From contig CAYIAA010000002.1 in NCBI GenBank assembly GCA_964361405.1, positions 5,299 to 69,298 on the forward strand: 64,000 bases of DNA, in the 5' to 3' direction. Shown one piece after another: positions 10,538 through 20,074 of this stretch. Every line of letters starts with the position of its first letter. Positions within the stretch are counted from its first letter, which is position 1. The DNA comes from an uncultured Candidatus Saccharibacteria bacterium (GTDB lineage: Bacteria; Patescibacteriota; Minisyncoccia; Phycocordibacterales; UBA3531). Below the pieces are notes generated by a model. It made no database searches and had not been told where the DNA came from. It saw nothing but the letters and a program-made list of their open reading frames with translations. Made by a program: the position numbers and the translations under genes.

Positions 10538-11485
10538 ATGGAGCCGAAAAAACCTCGAGTCGTCATTGTCCACGGATGGGCCAGCTCGCCCGAGGATGCG
10601 TGGCTTCCATGGCTTCGCCGTGAACTTGAGTCTCGCGGTGTCGAGGTCATAGCACCGGCATTTCCAAACCCGAAAGAGCCCGATATTTCCGCATGGATTT
10701 CTCTATTGAGAGAATCAGTCCAAGCGCCGGATGAAAATACCCACTTCGTGGGACACAGTCTTGGTGGGTACGTTATTCTCAAATTTATTGAAAGTCTTCC
10801 TGCCGGCATAATGGTGGGAGGGGTTGTGTCGGTTGCATCTCGGATAAAGAAAGAAGGGAAGGTTGAAATAGACGTACGTAAAGTGCGGGAGAGTACGCGG
10901 GAAATTACCGCGTTTTTTTCAGATAACGATTACTATGTGCCAGTAGAGGAAGCGGCAGAGTGGCGAAAGCACCTTTCTGCAAGTACTACGCTTCTCAAAG
11001 GACAGGGGCATTTTTCCCGACGGGAAAAAATGACAGAACTTCCGATTGTACTTGAACTTATTCTCCAAATGTCAGGCTTTATCGCGCTTCCTCCTCGAGT
11101 GGGCGTGGCACTCCTCCGCGAAGGGAAAGTGCTCTTGATACGGCGGCTCTGGGACGGACAGGAGTATTATGCATTTCCTGGCGGAGGGATCGAAGAGGGC
11201 GAAGGAATAGATCAGGCGATTGAACGGGAAATTAAAGAAGAATTACAGCTTACGATCCTTGTCGGAGAACCATTTCTTAAAATCATGAACTTGGGGCGCT
11301 GGGAGACATTTTTTCTCATTCGCGATTTTGTCGGAGAACCGATAAAAAGCGCCGAACTTTTGGATACGACAGAGCGTGGGAGTCACGACCTTGTGTGGCT
11401 TACGTATGAAGAGTGTGCGAAGGCCTCCGCGGTGTATCCGGAGCGAGCACGGAGAGCACTTCTTTCAGAGTTGGAAAAGGTATGA
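10538..11485 (+). CDS. fusion protein: RBBP9/YdeN-like alpha/beta serine hydrolase + NUDIX hydrolase
   Basis: N-terminus VVIVHGWASSPEDAWLPWL ... FVGHSLGG (Ser_hydrolase pattern); C-terminal Nudix box GGGIEEGEGIDQAIEREIKEELQL. Confidence 0.7.
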   Translation: MEPKKPRVVIVHGWASSPEDAWLPWLRRELESRGVEVIAPAFPNPKEPDISAWISLLRESVQAPDENTHFVGHSLGGYVILKFIESLPAGIMVGGVVSVASRIKKEGKVEIDVRKVRESTREITAFFSDNDYYVPVEEAAEWRKHLSASTTLLKGQGHFSRREKMTELPIVLELILQMSGFIALPPRVGVALLREGKVLLIRRLWDGQEYYAFPGGGIEEGEGIDQAIEREIKEELQLTILVGEPFLKIMNLGRWETFFLIRDFVGEPIKSAELLDTTERGSHDLVWLTYEECAKASAVYPERARRALLSELEKV

Positions 11486-14469
11486 CCGGGAGAGCTTTTA
11501 CTAATCTCTATCGGCGGCTCAATCCCGAGCAGCGTGATGCAGTCGATGCCATCGAGGGGCCGGTGATGGTTGTCGCTGGACCCGGTACCGGAAAAACCGA
11601 AGTGCTTACGCTTCGCATCGCCAACATTCTCCGGAAAACTGATACTCCCCCGGAGGGAATTCTTGCTCTCACCTTTACCGACTCCGGCGTTTACTCGATG
11701 CGGCGGCGTTTGGTTGAAATCGTGGGAAGTGATGCGTACCGTGTCACCATTGCCACTTTCCATGGTTTTGCAAACGAAATTATCCGATCAAATCCGGGTG
11801 AATTTCCGGGAATCGTCGGGTCCGTCCACATACCTGCAATTGAGCAAATCAAAATCCTTGAGGCTATCGTCAAAGAGATGAAGCTTCCGCTATTAAAACC
11901 CTTCGGTGATCCTTTGTTTTACCTCTACCCACTCTCCCGCGCGATTGGGGATTTGAAAAAAGATGCGATTACGCCGGATGATCTTGAAAAAGAAAACCGT
12001 GCCGAGGAAATAAAACTCAAAAATCTTCCTGACCTCACCTACGAAAAGGGGGTGCGGAAGGGTACGATGCGCAGAATTTACCGCGCCAAGTTTAAAGACA
12101 TCGCAAAGATAGGGGAACTTTCCCGAGTGTATCGCGCATACCAGAAAGTGCTCGTCAAGGAGAAATTTTATGATTACGATGACATGATTGCGGAAGTTGT
12201 CAGGGCGCTTACAAAGAGCGAAGACTTGCGGCTTACTCTACAGGAAACCTATCTCTATGTTCTCGCGGATGAACACCAGGATGCAAACCGTGCGCAGAAT
12301 AAACTGCTCGAACTCTTGGCATCTTTCCACGATCCGTATCCGAATCTATTCATTGTCGGCGATGAAAAGCAGGCGATTTTCCGTTTTCAAGGTGCCTCCC
12401 TTGAAAACTTTCTCTACTTTAAGAGGCGCTACCCGAGGGCTCTCCTCGTGACGCTTTTGAGGAATTATCGCTCAACCAAAGCCTTACTCGGCGCCGCCGG
12501 AAGTATGATCGCGCGGAGCGGGATGCGTGTTTTAGGAAGCGAGGCATCCTTAATCGCGGTAGGGAGTAGAAAGGGAGAAGGTGTTCTTATTTACCCTTTT
12601 TCTTCCTCGGACCACGAAGTTAAATTTTTGTCCGCGGATATCAAAGAAGAACTCGCGAAAGGAACCCCTCCGGGGGAAATTGCCATTCTCTATCACGACA
12701 ATAAAGATGCTCTCCCTATCGCCGCCCTACTCTCGCGCTGCGGTATTCCGTTCGTAATTGAATCTGCCGAGGATGTCCTATCCGACTCTGACATAGTGAA
12801 GCTTGTCATGCTTCTCACCGCAGTCGAGCATTTCGGCGACGACGAAAAAGTTCTTGCGGCACTCCACCTTGATTTCCTTGGTATCCCGAGTCTCGATATC
12901 TTTCGCATTGCCGGCGAACGGAGTCGATCACACCTGCCCATCGTCGAGATTATACATTCGAAATCTGCACTCACCGCCGTCTCAGTCGGAGAATGTGAGC
13001 GAGTTCTTTCTTTTGCGCGCAATCTTTCTTTATGGCACAAAGCATCCAAGAATAAAAATCTCACCGAACTCCTTGAACTTGTTACCGAAGAATCTGGTTT
13101 CCTTGGGCATGTGATTTCACGACCCGATGCATTCGAGAAGCTTGAAAAAATCGATGCGCTCTTTAGCGAAGCGCGCAGGGTTCTCGGCACCCACCGCTCT
13201 TTTAAGCTTGCGGACTTTCTCGCTCACCTCGACCTTCTCGCGAAGTACCGTCTTTTTTCTTCCACTCGGTCGGCTGAAGGAAGATTTTCCCGCGTACACT
13301 TGCTCACGGCGCACCGCGCGAAGGGACTTGAGTTTGATGTTGTCTATATCACCGGGGCGACCGAAGGTCACTGGGGAGGACGAAGGAGATCAGTTTCCTT
13401 GCCGCTTCCCACGTCCGTAGGCACCGCCACCGACTCGATTGACGACGAGCGGCGGCTTTTTTACGTTGCGCTTACCCGTGCACGACGGAAGGTCGCGATA
13501 ACGTACTCTACGAAGGACGAACGGGGGAAAAACCTTCTTCCAGTCCAGTTTGTTGAGGAAATTGCTCTCGAGATGAAGCGTATTGTGCCTACGGAGGAAA
13601 TCGAGGCGATTGCAATGCGCTCACGGCTAAAAAAGAAGCCCATTCTAGCCCCCGCTCGTTCACCCCTTAAGGAAAAGGAATATTTGAACTCTCTCTTTCT
13701 TGAGCGGGGGCTTTCCGTCACCGCACTTAATAATTATCTCACCTGCCCGTGGCGGTATTTTTATGTGAACCTTCTTCGCGTTCCCGAAGCAAAAGGGAAA
13801 CACCAGATGTATGGCACCGCAGTACATACGGCGCTCAAGGAGTTTTTCGACGCGCTCCGAGGAGGCCGGAATATCGGAAAAAAAGAACTCCTTAGAATTT
13901 TTTCCGGACACCTGCGTCGGGAGCCGCTCTCTCGAGACGAACTTTCCGAGTCACTCGCGAAAGGAAAGCGCGCTCTTCGCGGATACCATGATCGGTATCG
14001 GAAGGAATGGAGTCCAAATATCATGAATGAATTTAGCGTTCGCGGCGTTCTCCTTGATGAGAAAATTCCTTTAACCGGCAAACTCGATAAGATCGAATTT
14101 CTTGATGCCGTTGGGCACGTCAATGTTGTTGATTATAAAACTGGAAGACCGCGATCGCGCGCTGTGATAGAAGGGAAAACCAAGGGCGGGGACGGAGCAT
14201 ACAAGCGTCAGCTCGTTTTCTATAAACTTCTTCTTGACCGCTATTTGGGAGGGAAGTACCACATGGTTTCCGGCGACATTGATTTTATCGAGCCGGATGC
14301 GAGCGGGAAATTTAGAAAAGAACGGTTTTTGATTGAAAGAACGGACGTCAACGCGCTTGAGGAAGTGGTGGGGCGTGTATCAAAGGAAATCCTGTCGCTC
14401 TCGTTTTGGGGCCGGAGGTGTAGAGATAAGGAATGTCGGTATTGCCGACTTGCAAAGATGAAGGAATAA
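11482..14469 (+). CDS. UvrD/PcrA-family DNA helicase with C-terminal Cas4/AddB-like Fe-S PD-(D/E)xK nuclease domain
   Basis: Walker A AGPGTGKT, helicase motifs (LADEHQD, VGDEKQAIFRFQGA, LLRNYRST); C-terminus VVDYKTGRP ... YKRQL plus Cys cluster C(TCPWRY) ... CRDKECRYC; ATGA overlap with the upstream stop. Confidence 0.8.
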   Translation: MTGRAFTNLYRRLNPEQRDAVDAIEGPVMVVAGPGTGKTEVLTLRIANILRKTDTPPEGILALTFTDSGVYSMRRRLVEIVGSDAYRVTIATFHGFANEIIRSNPGEFPGIVGSVHIPAIEQIKILEAIVKEMKLPLLKPFGDPLFYLYPLSRAIGDLKKDAITPDDLEKENRAEEIKLKNLPDLTYEKGVRKGTMRRIYRAKFKDIAKIGELSRVYRAYQKVLVKEKFYDYDDMIAEVVRALTKSEDLRLTLQETYLYVLADEHQDANRAQNKLLELLASFHDPYPNLFIVGDEKQAIFRFQGASLENFLYFKRRYPRALLVTLLRNYRSTKALLGAAGSMIARSGMRVLGSEASLIAVGSRKGEGVLIYPFSSSDHEVKFLSADIKEELAKGTPPGEIAILYHDNKDALPIAALLSRCGIPFVIESAEDVLSDSDIVKLVMLLTAVEHFGDDEKVLAALHLDFLGIPSLDIFRIAGERSRSHLPIVEIIHSKSALTAVSVGECERVLSFARNLSLWHKASKNKNLTELLELVTEESGFLGHVISRPDAFEKLEKIDALFSEARRVLGTHRSFKLADFLAHLDLLAKYRLFSSTRSAEGRFSRVHLLTAHRAKGLEFDVVYITGATEGHWGGRRRSVSLPLPTSVGTATDSIDDERRLFYVALTRARRKVAITYSTKDERGKNLLPVQFVEEIALEMKRIVPTEEIEAIAMRSRLKKKPILAPARSPLKEKEYLNSLFLERGLSVTALNNYLTCPWRYFYVNLLRVPEAKGKHQMYGTAVHTALKEFFDALRGGRNIGKKELLRIFSGHLRREPLSRDELSESLAKGKRALRGYHDRYRKEWSPNIMNEFSVRGVLLDEKIPLTGKLDKIEFLDAVGHVNVVDYKTGRPRSRAVIEGKTKGGDGAYKRQLVFYKLLLDRYLGGKYHMVSGDIDFIEPDASGKFRKERFLIERTDVNALEEVVGRVSKEILSLSFWGRRCRDKECRYCRLAKMKE

Positions 14470-14485
14470 TCGCCTCAAATGAAAA

Positions 14486-14523
14486 GGCCGCGGTCTTCAC
14501 ACTCTTGTGTGAAAACCGCGGCC
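14486..14523. terminator. hairpin terminator between convergent genes
   Basis: GGCCGCGGT-cttcacactcttgtgtgaaa-ACCGCGGCC; U-tract is on the minus-strand side (TTTTCATTT), so it mainly serves the minus-strand gene. Confidence 0.55.
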
Positions 14524-14538
14524 CAGAGCCTGTGTCGG

Positions 14539-15198
14539 CTAGTGAATGACTCGTCCCTCCTTCGACTTCGAGCGGAGTTCGTCGCCGATCGAGACACGGA
14601 GATCACTCCCCCTTGTCTTGGTCGCCGCGGATGATTTCCCCTCTTCGGAATCACCGTTCTCTTCGATGGTGATTCCGAAGAGGGAGAGCACTTCCTGTTG
14701 GTGTGCCCGATGGAGATCGCGTGCCGTGATCTTCTCCTTGAGCTCCTTCTCCTGCACTTCAAGGCCGGCGATCTTTCTCTTGGTCATTTCAATCTCTTTG
14801 TCGATCCAGTCGAGTCGGCCCCTCCAATAGTCGGTAGCTAGGGTGGAGAACTTCTCCCTCGGAATCTCCCTTCCCTGTGACCCGCCCACCTTCTTTCGGA
14901 GAGCTTCGACACAGTGATGACACCCAGTGCGCCGAATTTTGTCCGAGTGCACCTCAGCCTTGGTGACTAGGTAGTTCACCCAGCCGTTCTCCTTGATGAG
15001 TGGCCCAGTGCCAAGACATCCCTGCGAGTTCTTCTTGAGGAAGTTGAATTCGCAGACGAATGGTTGATCAGGTCGTGCCGCCACTTCCTCTCTCTTCGTG
15101 ACGAACTCCCCGTATCTCTTCTGGTTGTCCGCGAGGCGGTTCACGACCTCTCCGAGGGTATCCTCGTAGGTCTTTGTCGGTACCTCTTTGGTCGACAT
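14539..15198 (-). CDS. hypothetical protein with Zn-binding-like Cys/His motif and coiled coil (219 aa), GC-rich
   Basis: C-x21-C ... CHHC motif, K/E-rich coiled-coil segment, GAG/AAG/CTC/GTC-rich codon usage unlike the flanking genes. Confidence 0.5.
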   Translation of the reverse strand: MSTKEVPTKTYEDTLGEVVNRLADNQKRYGEFVTKREEVAARPDQPFVCEFNFLKKNSQGCLGTGPLIKENGWVNYLVTKAEVHSDKIRRTGCHHCVEALRKKVGGSQGREIPREKFSTLATDYWRGRLDWIDKEIEMTKRKIAGLEVQEKELKEKITARDLHRAHQQEVLSLFGITIEENGDSEEGKSSAATKTRGSDLRVSIGDELRSKSKEGRVIH

Positions 15199-15330
15199 TG
15201 GCCTTTCTCCTATTCGATAGTTGTACAGAGCGCCAAAGAACTTTTCAATGGCACTAGGAACATTCTCTTTTTATTTAAGCATATCATAATATTTTTGTCA
15301 AGTATCATCGGACTCTCACCCTGCGTTACT

Positions 15331-16050
15331 ATGGTTCCTATGGCAAGTAATAGTAATGAAAGAGCGAAGGCCTTATGGCTTTCTCCGACAGGTGTACAGG
15401 GTCTCGAGCGTTGTCCGCGGTGCTTTTGGCTCAAGTACCGGAAAGGTGTCCACCAGCCGGAGGGTATTGTGTCGCGACTTGCGAACCGTTTCGACTCCGT
15501 CATAAAAAAATACTTCGATGCATATCGCCCCAAGCTCCCGCCGATAATCTCAAACACCTTAGAGGGCACACTTGAAGACCCCTTTCAGGAAAAATACTTT
15601 TATCGGCACGATGAGCGCTATGGCTATCTCGGCAAATTGGATGAGTGTATCATCGCCTTGGACGGGCGGCGTTCAGTAGTTGACCACAAAACGTCGAGCT
15701 CGGATCCGCGTGAAAAACAAACACTCTCCGCCTACCAGGACCAGCTAAACTCATATGCATGGCTTCTTGAAGAAAGCGGGAAGAAGACTTCCGGTGTCGG
15801 CCACCTCATCTACTTTTACCCGGATCATGCCGATGACCTCGAAAAGAGGTTTCCAATGGTAGTACACGTTTCAACGCTCACGACGAATTCGGATGCGGCA
15901 AAGCGAAAGTTTCTCCACGCACTCGACGTGCTTGAGAGCGCGATGCCCTCCCCCTCGGCCGATTGCCCCTTTTGTTCGTGGCACTCGAAAATGAAGGACG
16001 TCACCGCACCTTCTTCGCGCAAGGCGAAAGATCAGGAGTCCTTATTTTAA
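15331..16050 (+). CDS. PD-(D/E)xK nuclease, Cas4/RecB-like with 4-Cys cluster
   Basis: CPRCFWLKY at the N-terminus, VVDHKTSS (D/ExK core), DCPFCSWHSK at the C-terminus; start ATG 15331 (ORF-track start 15064 overlaps the divergent gene). Confidence 0.65.
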   Translation: MVPMASNSNERAKALWLSPTGVQGLERCPRCFWLKYRKGVHQPEGIVSRLANRFDSVIKKYFDAYRPKLPPIISNTLEGTLEDPFQEKYFYRHDERYGYLGKLDECIIALDGRRSVVDHKTSSSDPREKQTLSAYQDQLNSYAWLLEESGKKTSGVGHLIYFYPDHADDLEKRFPMVVHVSTLTTNSDAAKRKFLHALDVLESAMPSPSADCPFCSWHSKMKDVTAPSSRKAKDQESLF

Positions 16051-16057
16051 TGCTTTT

Positions 16058-16083
16058 ATATCAAGTGCCATCCTTGATATTTT
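16058..16083 (+). terminator. rho-independent terminator
   Basis: ATATCAAG-tgccatc-CTTGATAT followed by TTTAAT. Confidence 0.5.
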
Positions 16084-16100: not shown

Positions 16101-17948
16101 CTAAACTTCAAGCAGGACCGGAAGTATAATCGGCCGCTTCTTAGTTTGATTAAAAAGAAATTTTCCGATTGTTTCGCGTACGTTATTTTTCACAAAGTCG
16201 AAATTGATGGGGCGCATGGGCCCAATCGAATCTTCGACAGACTTTTTGACGAGGAGGCGGGTTTGATTTAAGAGGTCTTGCGACTCTTTCAGGTAGATGA
16301 ACCCGCGCGAAATGATGTCCGGAGATTTTTTAATCTTCCCGCTTTTCGTGTCGATTACGGCGACGATGACGAACATGCCGTCCTGCGCCAAAACTTGCCG
16401 GTCGCGGATTACAACCTCTTTCACGTCGCCGCGGCCGAGCCCGTCAACCATGACGATGCCTGCCGGGGCTCCTTGTTTTGCCGCCTGGATTTTCTCTCCG
16501 CCCCCGGTAATCTCGATGATCATGCCGTTGTCGGGAATTACTATGTTGCTTTCCGCTATGCCGGCCGCCTTCGCAACAGCTCCGTGGACACGGAGCATAT
16601 AGTGGTAGCCGTGGACGGGGATAAAGAACTTCGGTTTCAGCGTGGAAATAATCCACTTCGCTTCTTCTTTGTAGGCATGTCCGCTCGAATGGACGTTAGC
16701 GACGTCTTGGTGGAGGATGGAGGCACCCTGGCGCGAGAGGTTGTCTTTTAGTTTCTGCACATCGCGCTCATTTCCCGGAATGACGGATGAAGAAAGAACG
16801 ACTACGTCGGTTTTATTAATCTTGATGTGCTTATGCTGACGGTTTGCAATCCGCATGAGTGCCGCGAATTCATCTCCTTGCGCGCCGGTCGCCAAAATGA
16901 TGATTTTATTCGGTGGATGAGAACCCATTTCTTCAACGGGGATGATTGTGTGTTTTTTAGGTTTGAGTAACCCCAGCTCCTTTGCGATTTCAACGTTAAT
17001 TTTCATTGACCTTCCTTCGATCACTACCTTTTTTCCGAGTTCCTCCGCGGTGTAGATGATGTAGATAATGCGTTCGAGGAGCGAGGAGAAAATTCCGATG
17101 ATGAGTCGCCCTTTTGCCTCGCTCACAATTTGGCGGAGATTCTCATGCACAGCTCGTTCGGCAAAGCTGAAGCCCTCCCGCTCGGTGTTGGTCGAATCCG
17201 CAAGGAGAAGCAGATTTTTCTGCGAACCAATTGCCGTGAAGATCTCGACTTCATGCGGGAGCGGCACACCGTCCTGGTGGTCGATTTTGAGATCGCCCGA
17301 ATGGATGATATTCCCGTGCGGGGTTTCAATGATGACCCCCATGGCGTCGGGAATAGTGTGCGTGACGGCAAAGAAGCGAGCAGAGAGTAATGGCCCGAAG
17401 GGAATGACCCCCTCTTTTTCAATGATGTTTAAATTGAGTTTCGGAAGGTGAGGGAACTCCGATTGCCGTTTTCTGATGATGGCGGCAGTGAGTTCCCGTG
17501 CATAAATCGGTGGGTTCCCGATTTTTTCTATGATAAAAGGAATGCCTCCGACGTGGTCGAGGTGACCGTGCGTAATGATGAGGCCGCGGATGGAGCTTTT
17601 CCGCGCTTCGAGGTAGCCAGTGTCGGGAATGATGTAGTCGACGCCGGGCGCTTCATCGCCCGGGAATTGGATACCGGCATCAACGATGACGATTTCGTTC
17701 TTGTATTCGATAACCGTCATGTTTTTTCCGATTTCCTCGACCCCGCCGAGTGGAATAACCCGGATAGTCTCGTCTAATGGGCCGCGGCGTGGAACCTGAC
17801 GCGGTTCTCGGCGCATTCCTCCGCGGGGTCGACCCATGCCGCGAGGAGGATGTGCGCTTCCTTGTCCACGCACTCCGAAGTGCCTACGCGGCCCCTGCCG
17901 CGGACGCTTTGCTCCGTGTCCTTGTCCTTCTCGTATCGTTGTTTCCAT
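16101..17948 (-). CDS. rnj: ribonuclease J (beta-CASP metallo-beta-lactamase) with Arg/Gly-rich N-terminal extension
   Basis: ITHGHLDHVGG, beta-CASP region, C-terminal domain; start ATG 17948 lies 4 nt after the upstream stop; N-terminus GQGHGAKRPRQGPRRHFGVRGQG ... RGMGRPRGGMRR. Confidence 0.85.
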   Translation of the reverse strand: METTIREGQGHGAKRPRQGPRRHFGVRGQGSAHPPRGMGRPRGGMRREPRQVPRRGPLDETIRVIPLGGVEEIGKNMTVIEYKNEIVIVDAGIQFPGDEAPGVDYIIPDTGYLEARKSSIRGLIITHGHLDHVGGIPFIIEKIGNPPIYARELTAAIIRKRQSEFPHLPKLNLNIIEKEGVIPFGPLLSARFFAVTHTIPDAMGVIIETPHGNIIHSGDLKIDHQDGVPLPHEVEIFTAIGSQKNLLLLADSTNTEREGFSFAERAVHENLRQIVSEAKGRLIIGIFSSLLERIIYIIYTAEELGKKVVIEGRSMKINVEIAKELGLLKPKKHTIIPVEEMGSHPPNKIIILATGAQGDEFAALMRIANRQHKHIKINKTDVVVLSSSVIPGNERDVQKLKDNLSRQGASILHQDVANVHSSGHAYKEEAKWIISTLKPKFFIPVHGYHYMLRVHGAVAKAAGIAESNIVIPDNGMIIEITGGGEKIQAAKQGAPAGIVMVDGLGRGDVKEVVIRDRQVLAQDGMFVIVAVIDTKSGKIKKSPDIISRGFIYLKESQDLLNQTRLLVKKSVEDSIGPMRPINFDFVKNNVRETIGKFLFNQTKKRPIILPVLLEV

Positions 17949-17952
17949 AGTG

Positions 17953-19767
17953 TTAGTTCTCTCTGTGAGGATCTTTAGAAATTGGGTGGTTAAAAATTGG
18001 CCAGATGCTCTCGGTATAGAGGTGCCAGGCATACACATTCAAATATCGCTCTGACTGTACCGTAAGGGCAACGGGTGAAATGCCTTTTACGCGTTCAGGA
18101 ATGATGTAGAGAAAGTTTGGAGCGTAGAGAAAAATTGCGGGGATATCCTTTTCCACCGTTTCTTGGAATTCTTTGTACATCCTCTCGCGCTCTGCCCGAT
18201 TCTCGGTTTTCCTCGCGTTCTCGAGGAGTTTGTCCACGGTGACGTTCGCATAGAGCGCGACATTGAGTCCGGGGTCAAGCCGTTGGGATGAGTGCCAGAA
18301 AGCGAAAGGGTCGGGGTCTCTTCCGATAATCTCTCCAAAAAGGAGAGCATCGTAGTCGCGTTGGCGAATGATGTTTTGGTTCAAATCCCCGGTTTCAAAA
18401 ACACGTATCTCCACTTGGGCGCCCAAACGCTCCCACGTTTCCTTTACTATTTCTGCCACGGCTTTGAGTTCTGGAACATCAGCTGTCGCGAGGTGGAATG
18501 AAAGTTTTTCTTCGTTTTTTTTCTCCGTTTTCGTGAAGATATTGTCAGAGGGGTTACGTTTCCACCCATCTTCAATGAGAGAGAGTGCCGCGAGTTCAAG
18601 TGGGTTTGTTGTTGAAGCAGTGGCAGCTGCTACAGCACGAATTCCCGAAATGTAGCCGAGTGCCCCCGGTGGAATCGGTCCTTCGATCGGAGACCCGTAG
18701 CCGCTCAGCACTTCTTCCACAATACCCCCCGTACTAAGTGCATCACGGAGTGCACGTCGCACGGCGAGGCTGGTGAATATCCGCGCATGGTCTTGGTTAA
18801 AGAAGACGCCGAATACTCGTGTCAGTGGAAATTCGATAATGCGGCTCGCCCGCTCTTCTTTCATGAGAGCTGAATTTGGTGAAAGTCCTCCGACAAGCTC
18901 GAAAGCGCCGTTCCTAAAAGCATTCTCAAGTGTCGTTTCATTCGGATAGAATCGGAGGCGAATCCGATCGATAAAAGGTTCCCCGAGCGCAAAATGTTCG
19001 AACGACTTCAAGTCATAGTATTCGGGTACCCCCACCTCGTTTCGAACGATGCCTTCCACTTTATATGGACCGCCCCCAACAGGACTTATGTTAAACGTGC
19101 TTACGCCGAATTCCTCGGCCGAGATAGTGCCCCAGATGTGTTTTGGAATAATGCCAAGAGTGGCATTTTCAGGAAAAGGAGAATAAGGCTGTTTCAAACT
19201 GAATTCCACGGTGCGCTCGTCAATTTTTTGAACCACCACCCCCTCCCAGCTTGCCCTCCGTGAGCTTTTCACCAGCGGGTCAGTAATTTTTTTTATGGTG
19301 AAGACAACGTCGTCCGCCGTGATTGGTACGCCGTCATGCCATATGAGCCCAGGACGGAGCGTGAAGGTATAGGTGAGGCCGTCAGGAGATACGGAGTAGC
19401 TCTCCGCGAGATCGGGGATGAGATTGCCACTCTCTCCGACGCGAAGGAGTCCGGAGTAGAGGAGTGCGACAAGGTCTTTATCTGCCTCGGAAACGGCGAG
19501 GAGTGGGTTCACGAAGCGGGGACTCCCGACGATACCTTCGGAGATTCCACCGCCATGAACTGGCACTATGGAGGAAACGCTTCCATTAACCCGGGTGAGT
19601 ATTCCGAGTACACTTGCGATGGAAATCCAAAAAAGTGCCCAGAATATAATCCGTTCACGGAGTGAAAACTCGCGAATAATGCGTGGAATGTCGCTCTCCC
19701 GCGACAAATCTGCCCCGCCGAGGAAGGGAAATGTGTATTCCTTTTTGAGTGCGTCAGGTAATTTCAC
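17953..19767 (-). CDS. extracellular solute-binding protein family 5 (OppA/DppA-like), N-terminally membrane-anchored
   Basis: TM IIFWALFWISIASVLGIL followed by the family-5 SBP profile (PYKVEGIVRNE ..., FRNGAFELVGG). Confidence 0.75.
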   Translation of the reverse strand: MKLPDALKKEYTFPFLGGADLSRESDIPRIIREFSLRERIIFWALFWISIASVLGILTRVNGSVSSIVPVHGGGISEGIVGSPRFVNPLLAVSEADKDLVALLYSGLLRVGESGNLIPDLAESYSVSPDGLTYTFTLRPGLIWHDGVPITADDVVFTIKKITDPLVKSSRRASWEGVVVQKIDERTVEFSLKQPYSPFPENATLGIIPKHIWGTISAEEFGVSTFNISPVGGGPYKVEGIVRNEVGVPEYYDLKSFEHFALGEPFIDRIRLRFYPNETTLENAFRNGAFELVGGLSPNSALMKEERASRIIEFPLTRVFGVFFNQDHARIFTSLAVRRALRDALSTGGIVEEVLSGYGSPIEGPIPPGALGYISGIRAVAAATASTTNPLELAALSLIEDGWKRNPSDNIFTKTEKKNEEKLSFHLATADVPELKAVAEIVKETWERLGAQVEIRVFETGDLNQNIIRQRDYDALLFGEIIGRDPDPFAFWHSSQRLDPGLNVALYANVTVDKLLENARKTENRAERERMYKEFQETVEKDIPAIFLYAPNFLYIIPERVKGISPVALTVQSERYLNVYAWHLYTESIWPIFNHPISKDPHREN

Positions 19768-19840: not shown

Positions 19841-20074
19841 CTAGACGAGGAGCGCCGCGAGCGACGTGAGACCGAACAAAATTGCAATAACGATGGTTCC
19901 AATGAATAGAATCCGTTCAATACCTCTCCGGGTGTAGTAGTTTCCACCGCCTCCTCCGCCACCGAACGTTGTGCCTAAGCCACCCTCGTCAGAGCGCTGA
20001 AGGAGAATGGCGGCGATGAGCGCCCCCGAGAGGGCGATTTGCACCCACGGGAGGGCGCTCGAGAGAGTTACCAT
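19841..20074 (-). CDS. secG: preprotein translocase subunit SecG
   Basis: MVTLSSALPWVQIALSGALIAAILLQRSDEGGLG ... FGGGGGG ... TM2; start ATG 20074. Confidence 0.75.
   Translation of the reverse strand: MVTLSSALPWVQIALSGALIAAILLQRSDEGGLGTTFGGGGGGGNYYTRRGIERILFIGTIVIAILFGLTSLAALLV

What the first reader, a model, noticed from the sequence alone, without database searches (positions are those of the whole stretch)
11482..16083. Minimal AddAB-like module: UvrD helicase fused to an Fe-S PD-(D/E)xK nuclease plus a standalone Cas4-like 4-Cys nuclease, interrupted by a foreign-looking gene
The 995-aa UvrD/PcrA-type helicase ends in a PD-(D/E)xK nuclease domain (VVDYKTGRP ... YKRQL) that carries the Cas4/AddB-type cysteine arrangement: one Cys at the domain N-terminus and a C-x4-C-x2-C cluster at the C-terminus. 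About 850 bp downstream is a 239-aa PD-(D/E)xK nuclease with CxxC at both ends (CPRC ... DCPFC), again Cas4/RecB-like. A helicase-nuclease plus a second Fe-S nuclease is the logic of AddAB or AdnAB end-resection machines, but here the second subunit is reduced to a bare nuclease. The two genes are separated by a convergently transcribed, GC-richer Zn-motif gene. No cas1, cas2 or CRISPR array is nearby, so a CRISPR adaptation role is unlikely. It is either a minimalist recombination-repair machine or a defence-type helicase-nuclease system.
Basis: partly seen in the sequence, partly recalled or inferred. Interest (0 to 1): 0.6.

Follow-up and report, generated by a model that had tools for sequence, protein, structure and literature searches.

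The report
Two unlinked CPR housekeeping nucleases
The helicase-nuclease fusion and the small Cas4-like nuclease are both real and look catalytically intact, but each belongs to its own family found across Patescibacteria (CPR). They sit side by side only in this lineage, so they are not a two-gene AddAB-like or defence module.

Summary
Observation confirmed. Gene 11482-14469 encodes a 995-aa UvrD/PcrA-type helicase with a C-terminal PD-(D/E)xK nuclease domain. Its catalytic residues and four cysteines (C755, C980-x4-C985-x2-C988) are invariant in 20 orthologs. Gene 15331-16050 encodes a 239-aa Cas4-like nuclease with invariant CxxC...CxxC and D, DxK and QxxxY motifs.

The "minimal AddAB-like module" reading is not supported. 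Of 80 genomes carrying the small nuclease, one has the helicase within 10 kb. Of 80 metagenomic loci carrying the helicase, none has the small nuclease. Only near-identical relatives (87% identity) share the arrangement. Three syntenic relatives have an MFS transporter in that slot instead.

In deeply diverged CPR bacteria the helicase-nuclease lies downstream of rpoC-dnaG-rpoD, a housekeeping context and not a defence context. Its nuclease domain is structurally closest to the Fe-S, 5'-strand nucleases of AdnA and AddB, yet it is attached to an intact motor. A single-chain end-resection or fork-processing enzyme is therefore plausible.

The small nuclease has no conserved neighbour. The gene between them is a lineage-restricted, GC3-rich ORFan.

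UvrD-Cas4-like fusions and solo Cas4 in CPR were already described (Hudaiberdiev 2017). These are new members of known kinds, of modest interest.

The parts
11482..14469 (+). Helicase-nuclease gene (995 aa): a UvrD/PcrA-type SF1A helicase fused to a C-terminal 4-Cys PD-(D/E)xK nuclease. Its ATG overlaps the stop codon of the upstream Ser_hydrolase-NUDIX gene by 4 nt.
   Evidence: Pfam and NCBIfam hits. The gene call and a 100% identical protein, P0121. Invariant motifs in 20 orthologs.
11518..13512 (+). Helicase core (residues 13-677) with all SF1A motifs intact: GPGTGKT, DEHQD, GDEKQAIFRFQGA, NYRS, TAHRAKGLEF and YVALTRA.
   Evidence: UvrD-helicase 13-318 and UvrD_C 324-677. The best solved relative by sequence is PcrA 1pjr, E 3e-67. 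Invariant columns are listed.
13711..14451 (+). Nuclease domain (residues 744-990). Invariant residues are C755, H782, D869, D884-x-K886, Q910...Y914 and C980-x4-C985-x2-C988.
   Evidence: PDDEXK_1, 87.3 bits. AF2 model with pLDDT 91.4. The Foldseek top hits are the AdnA nuclease domain (TMq 0.60, rmsd 3.7 A), RecE and the AddB nuclease.
14485..14524 (.). An 18-bp-stem, GC-rich hairpin between the convergent stop codons of the helicase gene and the 219-aa gene. It is a likely intrinsic terminator, with a T-rich tail on the minus strand.
   Evidence: Terminator scan and the sequence itself.
14539..15198 (-). Lineage-restricted 219-aa ORFan with four conserved Cys (C49, C61, C93-x2-C96) and a charged, probably coiled-coil C-terminal half. 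It is not part of any conserved module.
   Evidence: No Pfam, NCBIfam or PADLOC hit. Only itself and one homolog (63% by BLASTP; 65% in the codon alignment) were found among 5.8 billion proteins and 1.8 billion representatives. dN/dS is 0.31. GC3 is 0.705.
15199..15330 (.). AT-rich divergent intergenic region, from which the 219-aa gene and the small nuclease gene must each be transcribed. The small nuclease therefore has its own promoter region.
   Evidence: Sequence. Only weak promoter-like matches were found. Promoter use is inferred.
15331..16050 (+). Stand-alone 239-aa Cas4-like PD-(D/E)xK nuclease. Invariant residues are C28-x2-C31, D104, C106, D118-x-K120, Q138...Y142 and C212-x2-C215.
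   Evidence: PDDEXK_1, 47 bits. 561 homologs, mostly 52-64% identical among the best 120 and named Patescibacteria group where a source names them. Alignment A1. AF2 model with pLDDT 86.9. Foldseek top hits are Cas4 SSO0001, Cas4-Cas1, the AdnA nuclease, lambda exonuclease/RecE, EXO5 and MGME1.

Best explanation
These are two independent, vertically inherited housekeeping DNA-processing genes of a Patescibacteria (CPR) chromosome. They are neighbours here by lineage-specific gene order, not as a module.

(a) The 995-aa protein belongs to a family found across Parcubacteria. It joins an intact UvrD/PcrA-type 3'-5' SF1A motor to a C-terminal nuclease domain of the AdnA/AddB/Cas4 type that probably binds an iron-sulfur cluster. 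The inferred mechanism is that the motor tracks the 3' strand while the attached nuclease cuts the displaced 5' strand. In one polypeptide this would produce the 3' single-stranded tail needed by RecA, or process forks and flaps during replication and transcription conflicts. The family is frequently encoded just downstream of rpoC-dnaG-rpoD, which points to a core replication, transcription or repair role.

(b) The 239-aa protein belongs to a separate, very strongly conserved CPR-wide solo Cas4-like nuclease family. Its four putative metal ligands are arranged 2+2 (CxxC...CxxC). It is inferred to be a metal-cluster-stabilised single-strand DNA exo/endonuclease that acts on its own.

(c) The 219-aa gene between them is a fast-evolving, GC3-rich ORFan of this lineage.

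Shown here: domain content, residue conservation, fold relationships and the lack of conserved linkage. Inferred: metal cluster identity, nuclease polarity and biological role.
For: Lack of linkage:
- The helicase lies within 10 kb of the small nuclease in 1 of 80 loci; 57 of those loci have at least 4 kb upstream.
- The small nuclease lies within 10 kb of the helicase in 0 of 80 loci.
- Three syntenic loci (YqeY-helicase-X-RNase J-SBP) have an MFS transporter at position X.
- The adjacency is kept only in close relatives: one with an 87%-identical helicase (full arrangement) and one with a 90%-identical nuclease, whose short contig shows a minus-strand gene and an unidentified, cut gene upstream.

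Housekeeping context:
- rpoD lies upstream of the helicase in 26-30 of 80 loci, dnaG in 22-23 and rpoC in 18. The helicases in the rpoD-linked loci are only about 40% identical to one another (minimum 34%).
- The window itself carries RNase J, GroEL, RNR, GyrA, aminoacyl-tRNA synthetases, IF-2, tRNAs and RNase P.
- No neighbour of the small nuclease recurs in more than 15 of 80 loci, and the recurring ones are unrelated genes: cyclophilin, MraY, M23 peptidase, MalQ and BipA.

Intact enzymes: helicase and nuclease motifs and the cysteines are invariant.

Fold:
- The helicase's nuclease domain is closest to AdnA (TMq 0.60) and AddB. The AdnA nuclease carries an Fe-S cluster and handles the 5' strand (PMC8789073).
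- The small nuclease is closest to Cas4 SSO0001.
- The two nuclease domains are only remote homologs: hhalign probability 90%, E 1.5e-6.

Purifying selection: dN/dS is 0.07 for the helicase and 0.10 for the nuclease.

Literature: UvrD-Cas4-like fusions, and solo Cas4 enriched in CPR, are described in PMC5704561.
Against: - No experiment exists for either family.
- Metal content, nuclease polarity and substrate are inferred from distant structural relatives (13-19% identity).
- The flanks held are only +/-10 kb and many contigs are shorter, so co-occurrence in the same genomes, and cooperation in trans, could not be tested and is not excluded.
- In AdnAB and AddAB the Fe-S nuclease sits on the inactive motor-like subunit. 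A single active motor carrying it has no studied precedent, so the proposed strand geometry is conjecture.
- The rpoD linkage is present in only about half of the loci that have enough upstream sequence, and it is absent in this window.
Confidence: 0.72

Rival explanations
1. One reading: the helicase-nuclease and the small nuclease are the two subunits of a minimal AddAB/AdnAB-like end-resection machine encoded as one module, secondarily interrupted by a foreign gene.
For: - Both proteins carry intact RecB/Cas4-type nuclease sites with four Cys.
- They lie 862 bp apart here, and the order is kept in close relatives.
- The intervening gene is a compositional outlier and an ORFan.
- AddAB and AdnAB do use two nucleases (PMC3321194 and PMC8789073).
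Against: - Co-location was seen in 1 of 80 and 0 of 80 related loci.
- Syntenic relatives have an MFS transporter in the slot.
- The two genes are separated by a convergent gene and a terminator hairpin, so they are separate transcription units.
- The small protein has no helicase-like domain, unlike AddB and AdnA.
- AddA and AddB equivalog models score far below their cut-offs.
Confidence: 0.05
2. The two proteins cooperate in trans as a CPR-specific resection or repair pair although they are encoded apart. The fused nuclease would take one strand and the solo Cas4-like nuclease the other.
For: - Both families are widespread in Patescibacteria.
- Both are present in this genome and in locus L080.
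- Known resection machines use two nucleases of opposite strand specificity (PMC8789073).
- Hudaiberdiev 2017 notes unfused UvrD plus Cas4-like operons in Clostridiales.
Against: - There is no linkage signal at all, whereas subunits of obligate complexes are usually co-encoded.
- The named source records of the two families only partly overlap: many small-nuclease loci are labelled Microgenomates-group, while the helicase hits are labelled Parcubacteria. This was not tested rigorously.
- No interaction evidence exists.
Confidence: 0.15
3. One or both genes form an anti-phage defence system: Gabija-like, or the UvrD-Cas4 defence-associated helicase-nuclease of Hudaiberdiev 2017.
For: - PADLOC GajB models hit the helicase (E 8.6e-74), and Cas4 models hit the small nuclease weakly.
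- UvrD-Cas4 fusions elsewhere sit beside type III R-M or Dcm-Vsr genes (PMC5704561).
Against: - The GajB hits cover only the generic UvrD core, and no GajA/OLD-type partner is nearby.
- No R-M, Dcm or Vsr genes are among the called genes or conserved neighbours.
- Near-universal, vertically conserved, single-copy genes in a dnaG-rpoD context, under strong purifying selection, are atypical of defence genes.
- The window is entirely housekeeping.
Confidence: 0.05

Closest known systems
UvrD-Cas4-like fusion proteins (largest branch of pfam12705; Hudaiberdiev et al. 2017, PMC5704561)
   Same: Same architecture: an N-terminal UvrD-like SF1 3'-5' helicase with a C-terminal Cas4-like PF12705 nuclease carrying cysteines. 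That paper also predicted a role analogous to the RecB and AddB nucleases, and noted that many such genes are stand-alone or in non-conserved contexts.
   Different: The conserved contexts described there are type III R-M and Dcm-Vsr defence loci. Here the conserved context is rpoC-dnaG-rpoD. Whether the CPR family falls inside that monophyletic fusion clade was not tested.
Mycobacterial AdnAB (AdnA nuclease domain)
   Same: It is the best structural match to the fused nuclease domain: TMq 0.60, rmsd 3.7 A over about 235 columns. The AdnA nuclease holds an Fe-S cluster and cleaves the unwound 5' strand, and it is a UvrD-like motor plus C-terminal RecB-like nuclease chain.
   Different: AdnAB is a heterodimer of two motor-nuclease chains encoded together, and AdnA's motor is inactive. 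Here there is a single chain with all motor motifs intact and no adjacent paralog. Sequence identity is only 18-19%.
AddAB (Bacillus-type helicase-nuclease)
   Same: It has an SF1A motor plus RecB-family nucleases. The AddB nuclease has one N-terminal Cys and three C-terminal Cys binding an Fe-S cluster. The AddB nuclease domain is among the top fold hits.
   Different: AddB is a roughly 1150-aa inactive-helicase scaffold that recognises Chi, and AddA's own nuclease lacks the cluster. The AddA and AddB models score 123 and 40 bits against cut-offs of 708 and 904. The cysteine spacing here is C-x4-C-x2-C, whereas the canonical spacing, from my own knowledge, is C-x2-C-x5-C.
Cas4 / solo-Cas4 (e.g. 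SSO0001; solo-Cas4 enriched in CPR and DPANN)
   Same: The small nuclease's top fold hit is Cas4 SSO0001. It has weak Cas4 HMM hits, the D / DxK / QxxxY active site, and four Cys bridging the N- and C-termini. It is CPR-wide with a Nanoarchaeia-labelled relative (L069), which matches the description of CPR solo-Cas4 grouping with DPANN.
   Different: It scores below the Cas4 equivalog cut-off (27.6 against 65 bits) and has no cas or CRISPR context. The ligand arrangement is 2+2 (CxxC...CxxC) instead of 1+3, and there is a fifth invariant Cys (C106) beside the active-site Asp. It is unusually strongly conserved, with about 60% mean column identity in an alignment whose named members span Parcubacteria- and Microgenomates-group lineages.
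PcrA/UvrD
   Same: PcrA is the best sequence match for the motor: TIGR01073 at 315 bits, and PDB 1pjr at E 3e-67. The genomic setting is housekeeping.
   Different: It scores below the equivalog cut-off (911 bits). The last ~90 positions of the PcrA model are not matched and are replaced by a ~280-aa nuclease domain.

Membership tests
AddAB | AddA subunit recognised by the AddA equivalog models | tested here: not met
   TIGR02785 scores 123.5 bits against a cut-off of 707.65. TIGR02784 scores 110.8 against 860.75.
AddAB | AddB subunit: a large inactive helicase-like scaffold with a C-terminal Fe-S nuclease | tested here: not met
   The 239-aa protein has only a nuclease domain. The AddB models hit only the helicase protein, at 40 and 28 bits against cut-offs of 904 and 487.
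AddAB / AdnAB | The two subunit genes are adjacent and co-transcribed, and this linkage is conserved across relatives | tested here: not met
   Linkage was found in 1 of 80 and 0 of 80 loci. A convergent gene and a terminator hairpin lie between the two genes.
AdnAB | Two paralogous motor-nuclease chains | tested here: not met
   No second helicase-nuclease lies next to the gene in any of 80 loci; only split ORFs were seen in two loci.
PD-(D/E)xK nuclease superfamily, PF12705 (Cas4-like/AddB-like) | Pfam gathering score reached, with conserved D, (D/E)xK and QxxxY catalytic motifs | tested here: met
   Scores of 87.3 and 47.0 bits against a cut-off of 22. D869/D884/K886/Q910/Y914 and D104/D118/K120/Q138/Y142 are invariant. 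Fold searches agree.
Fe-S cluster ('iron staple') nucleases (AddB, AdnA, Cas4, Dna2, EXO5) | Four conserved Cys bridging the N- and C-terminal ends of the nuclease domain and binding an Fe-S cluster | tested here: inconclusive
   Four invariant Cys are present in both proteins, but with non-canonical spacing (1+3 as C-x4-C-x2-C, and 2+2). The identity of the metal (4Fe-4S, 2Fe-2S or Zn) cannot be determined with these tools.
CRISPR-associated Cas4 | Cas4 equivalog score reached, with cas1/cas2/CRISPR context | tested here: not met
   TIGR00372 scores 27.6 and 30.4 bits against a cut-off of 65. No cas genes are among the called genes, and there is no repeat array.
UvrD-Cas4-like fusion family (Hudaiberdiev 2017) | A UvrD-like SF1 helicase fused N-terminally to a PF12705 Cas4-like nuclease | tested here: met
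   Domain order UvrD-helicase, UvrD_C, PDDEXK_1. All of the best 120 homologs listed carry the same Pfam domains.
UvrD-Cas4-like fusion family (Hudaiberdiev 2017) | Membership of the single monophyletic fusion clade; association with type III R-M or Dcm-Vsr | not tested
   No phylogeny against that paper's set was made. No R-M, Dcm or Vsr genes are among the conserved neighbours here.
PcrA/UvrD equivalogs | Equivalog cut-off reached; complete SF1A motifs | tested here: inconclusive
   The motifs are complete and invariant, but TIGR01073 scores 314.6 bits against a cut-off of 911.2, and the C-terminal part of the model is unmatched.
Gabija (GajA-GajB) | A GajB-like UvrD helicase encoded next to a GajA OLD-family ATPase-TOPRIM nuclease | tested here: not met
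   GajB HMMs hit the helicase core, but the neighbours are a Ser_hydrolase-NUDIX gene, an ORFan, the PDDEXK nuclease and RNase J.

The most novel reading that the evidence does not exclude
The CPR helicase-nuclease is a complete single-polypeptide double-strand-break resection or fork-processing machine. It would combine an active UvrD/PcrA motor with an AdnA/AddB-type Fe-S 5'-strand nuclease in place of PcrA's C-terminal domain. It would replace RecBCD/AddAB/AdnAB in these reduced genomes and be tied to the dnaG-rpoD operon. The ultra-conserved solo Cas4-like nuclease, with its re-shuffled 2+2 Cys metal site, would be its trans-acting second nuclease, or alternatively a CPR-specific essential DNA-processing enzyme.
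Probability: 0.15. Interest if true: 0.6.

Novelty: new member of a known kind. Interest (0 to 1): 0.3.

Why it matters
The proposed two-gene module does not exist, so nothing new follows at the system level.

What remains are two uncharacterised nuclease families that are unusually well conserved across a huge, mostly uncultivated bacterial radiation with minimal genomes. If the fused protein is the main end-resection or conflict-resolving enzyme of CPR bacteria, it would be the simplest known bacterial motor-nuclease and an easy biochemical target. The small nuclease's 2+2 cysteine arrangement would extend the known variants of the "iron staple" in Cas4/AddB-type nucleases.

Both points are incremental to what comparative genomics has already described.

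Tried and rejected
- AddAB/AdnAB module: rejected by two reciprocal neighbourhood surveys of 80 loci each.
- Defence system: PADLOC gave only generic GajB and weak Cas4 hits with no partner genes, and the context is housekeeping.
- CRISPR adaptation: no cas genes and no arrays.
- Conserved partner of the small nuclease: none. The largest neighbour cluster occurs in 15 of 80 loci and is a cyclophilin.
- Sequence-profile searches of the PDB were nearly empty. There were 0 hits for the helicase's nuclease domain and only marginal Cas4 hits for the small nuclease. Fold searches were needed instead.
- Homologs of the 219-aa gene: two database-wide searches found only one close relative, plus one weak 29-residue match. 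No function could be assigned, and the "Zn motif" remains unverified.
- Promoter scan: only weak consensus matches, not above expectation (7 found against 3.8 +/- 2.1 expected).

Full report
**What is in the sequence.** The region holds three genes.
- Gene 11482-14469 (+) encodes a 995-aa protein. Its ATG overlaps the stop codon of an upstream Ser_hydrolase-NUDIX fusion gene by 4 nt.
- Gene 14539-15198 (-) encodes a 219-aa protein.
- Gene 15331-16050 (+) encodes a 239-aa protein.

RNase J and a solute-binding protein follow on the minus strand. The window is a Patescibacteria (CPR) chromosome segment full of core genes: 12 tRNAs, RNase P RNA, GroEL, ribonucleotide reductase, GyrA, MurJ, LepA, IF-2 and aminoacyl-tRNA synthetases. 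There are no cas genes and no repeat arrays.

The 995-aa protein has UvrD-helicase, UvrD_C and PDDEXK_1 domains, all well above the Pfam cut-offs.
- In an alignment with 19 orthologs of 47-87% identity, every SF1A helicase motif is invariant.
- The nuclease residues H782, D869, D884-x-K886 and Q910...Y914 are also invariant.
- So are the four cysteines C755 and C980-x4-C985-x2-C988.

The 239-aa protein reaches the PDDEXK_1 cut-off (47 bits against 22). In 21 sequences it has invariant C28-x2-C31, D104, C106, D118-x-K120, Q138...Y142 and C212-x2-C215.

A profile-profile comparison shows that the two nuclease domains are remote homologs (probability 90%, E 1.5e-6). It aligns CPFC of the small protein with CEFC of the fusion. 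Relative to the fusion, the small protein therefore lacks the first of the three C-terminal cysteines (the equivalent of C980) and has a second N-terminal one. That gives a 2+2 arrangement in place of 1+3.

The middle gene is indeed GC-richer. Its GC3 is 0.705, against a gene mean of 0.535 with sd 0.053.

**The two nuclease genes are not a module.** I ran two reciprocal neighbourhood surveys.
- Nuclease-centred survey.
  - I fetched 80 genome loci encoding relatives of the small nuclease (46-62% identity; Parcubacteria, Kerfeldbacteria, Microgenomates-group phyla and others) with up to 10 kb on each side.
  - A tblastn search with the helicase found it in only one locus, L080, about 8 kb away on the opposite strand. 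57 of the loci have at least 4 kb upstream.
- Helicase-centred survey.
  - I fetched 80 metagenomic loci encoding orthologs of the helicase-nuclease (36-47% identity).
  - None contains the small nuclease, the 219-aa gene or the NUDIX gene.
- Chance expectation: two genes placed at random in a ~1 Mb genome fall within 10 kb of each other about 2% of the time, so these counts are what chance gives.
- Syntenic relatives: three helicase loci keep the wider synteny YqeY-helicase-X-RNase J-SBP. At X they carry an MFS transporter on the minus strand, not the ORFan plus nuclease.
- Close relatives.
  - The helicase/ORFan/nuclease/RNase J order is seen in contigs of the same organism and in a relative whose helicase is 87% identical.
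  - A short contig from a relative with a 90%-identical nuclease is consistent with it.
  - It is already absent at 59-62% nuclease identity (L001 and L002).
- Transcription units in the window.
  - The helicase gene ends 16 nt before an 18-bp-stem GC-rich hairpin (14485-14524), shared with the convergent ORFan gene.
  - The small nuclease starts after a 132-bp divergent intergenic region. The two nuclease genes are therefore separate transcription units.

**What the helicase-nuclease is.** More than 100 proteins of about 1000 aa with the same architecture were listed, from Parcubacteria-type bacteria. Databases name them "ATP-dependent DNA helicase", "PcrA" or "UvrD/REP helicase".

Conserved genomic context:
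- Upstream: rpoD in 26-30 of 80 loci (54 loci have at least 2 kb upstream), dnaG in 22-23 and rpoC in 18.
- Downstream: a DsbA-like thioredoxin, an RNase_H_2/PolB-exo-like 3'-5' exonuclease, HisRS and BacA.
- This holds among helicases that are only about 40% (minimum 34%) identical to each other.
- This is a core information-processing context, not a defence island.

Domain relationships:
- The motor is most like PcrA (TIGR01073 at 315 bits, below the equivalog cut-off of 911; PDB 1pjr at E 3e-67). The last ~90 positions of the PcrA model are not matched.
- An AF2 model of the C-terminal 281 residues (pLDDT 91.4) is closest to the nuclease domain of mycobacterial AdnA (TMq 0.60, rmsd 3.7 A). 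RecE and the AddB nuclease domain follow, and Cas4 and EXO5 rank further down.
[quoted passage not shown] In AdnAB this nuclease sits on a "motor-like" chain. AddB is described as having an "inactivated helicase domain" (PMC3321194 abstract).
- Here the same kind of nuclease is attached to a motor with all catalytic motifs intact, and no paralogous second chain is encoded nearby.

Most likely mechanism (inferred, not shown): a single chain translocates 3'-5' on one strand and cuts the displaced 5' strand. This would generate 3' tails for RecA, or trim forks and flaps during replication-transcription conflicts.

**What the small nuclease is.**
- There are 561 homologs. The best 120 listed are mostly 52-64% identical (three closer relatives reach 78-90%), and 58 alignment columns are invariant. 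Where a source names them, they are from the Patescibacteria group.
- One Nanoarchaeia-labelled contig (L069) encodes a 49%-identical copy.
- No neighbour recurs in more than 15 of 80 loci, and those that recur are unrelated housekeeping genes.
- The AF2 model (pLDDT 86.9) is closest to Cas4 SSO0001. The Cas4-Cas1 fusion, the AdnA nuclease, lambda exonuclease/RecE, EXO5, MGME1 and ACE1 follow.
- Cas4 HMMs match only below their cut-offs.
- It is best described as a solo Cas4-like (PF12705) nuclease acting on its own, probably a metal-cluster-stabilised single-strand DNA exo/endonuclease. Its cellular role is unknown; repair, or processing of imported DNA, are guesses.

**The middle gene.**
- Two database-wide searches found only the identical protein and one close homolog in the close relative (63% by BLASTP; 65% in the codon alignment). 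The only other hit was a weak 29-residue match.
- It is under weaker purifying selection than its neighbours: dN/dS is 0.31, against 0.07-0.12.
- It is a GC3 outlier.
- It is a real but lineage-restricted gene, possibly recently acquired. It does not interrupt anything, because there is no module to interrupt.

**Comparison with what is known.** Hudaiberdiev et al. 2017 (PMC5704561) already reported three relevant findings:
- The largest PF12705 branch consists of Cas4-like nucleases fused to UvrD-like helicases. They predicted a RecB/AddB-like role for these, and found them either beside type III R-M or Dcm-Vsr genes, or stand-alone.
- Solo Cas4 is encoded in many CPR genomes, and some group with DPANN homologs.
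- Unfused UvrD plus Cas4-like operons exist in Clostridiales.

Both proteins here are therefore new members of described kinds. Three points may go beyond that paper, though none of them was searched for in it or elsewhere: the deep rpoC-dnaG-rpoD linkage of the CPR fusion family, the AdnA/AddB-like (not Cas4-like) fold affinity of its nuclease domain, and the non-canonical cysteine spacings. The canonical C-x2-C-x5-C spacing is from my own knowledge, not from a tool result here.

**Verdict.** No experiment exists for either family, so mechanism, metal content and any cooperation in trans remain open. Interest is modest (0.3).

Noticed in passing
window 10538-11485 (+): A 315-aa fusion of a Ser_hydrolase (alpha/beta hydrolase) domain and a NUDIX domain. 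Its stop codon overlaps the helicase ATG by 4 nt, so it is probably co-transcribed with the helicase here. It was not found next to the helicase in any of 80 related loci. One homolog lay about 2 kb from the small nuclease in L075.
   Followed up: partly
window 14539-15198 (-): A 219-aa ORFan with four conserved Cys and a charged C-terminal half. GC3 is 0.705, 3.2 sd above the gene mean, and dN/dS is 0.31. Its dS against the relative (0.68) is about half that of its neighbours (1.1-1.3), which is unexplained.
   Followed up: partly
window 14485-14524: A very strong hairpin (18-bp stem, 11 G-C pairs) between the convergent helicase and ORFan genes. It is a likely terminator, with a T-rich tail only on the minus strand.
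   Followed up: partly
L095 13132-14322, L108 13323-14495, L145 13586-14917 (all minus strand): In relatives that keep the YqeY-helicase...RNase J-SBP synteny, the slot between the helicase and RNase J holds an MFS transporter instead of the ORFan plus small nuclease. This slot is a variable spot.
   Followed up: yes
L085-L164 (helicase loci), e.g. L111 2836-9790: The rpoC-dnaG-rpoD-helicase-nuclease gene order recurs in loci whose helicases are only 34-40% identical. A small RNase_H_2/PolB-exo-like 3'-5' exonuclease (about 190 aa) lies about 2 kb downstream on the opposite strand in 23-24 of 80 loci. It might be a functional partner or may simply reflect clade synteny.
   Followed up: partly
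L069 3846-4481: A contig labelled Candidatus Nanoarchaeia (DPANN archaeon) encodes a 49%-identical copy of the small nuclease. This could be CPR-DPANN sharing, as reported for solo-Cas4, or a binning error.
   Followed up: no
window 16101-18038 (-): RNase J has an N-terminal extension of about 90 aa that is rich in Arg, Gly and Pro, lying ahead of the metallo-beta-lactamase domain. The public gene call starts 30 codons downstream of the longest ORF (615 aa against 645 aa).
   Followed up: no
window 15331-16050, residue C106: A fifth invariant cysteine sits directly after the active-site Asp-Glu (LDEC) in the small nuclease family. It has no counterpart in the helicase's nuclease domain, and its role is unknown.
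   Followed up: no
window 20012-20057: The only tandem repeat in the window: a 21-nt unit, 2.2 copies, 80% matches. It is probably trivial.
   Followed up: no
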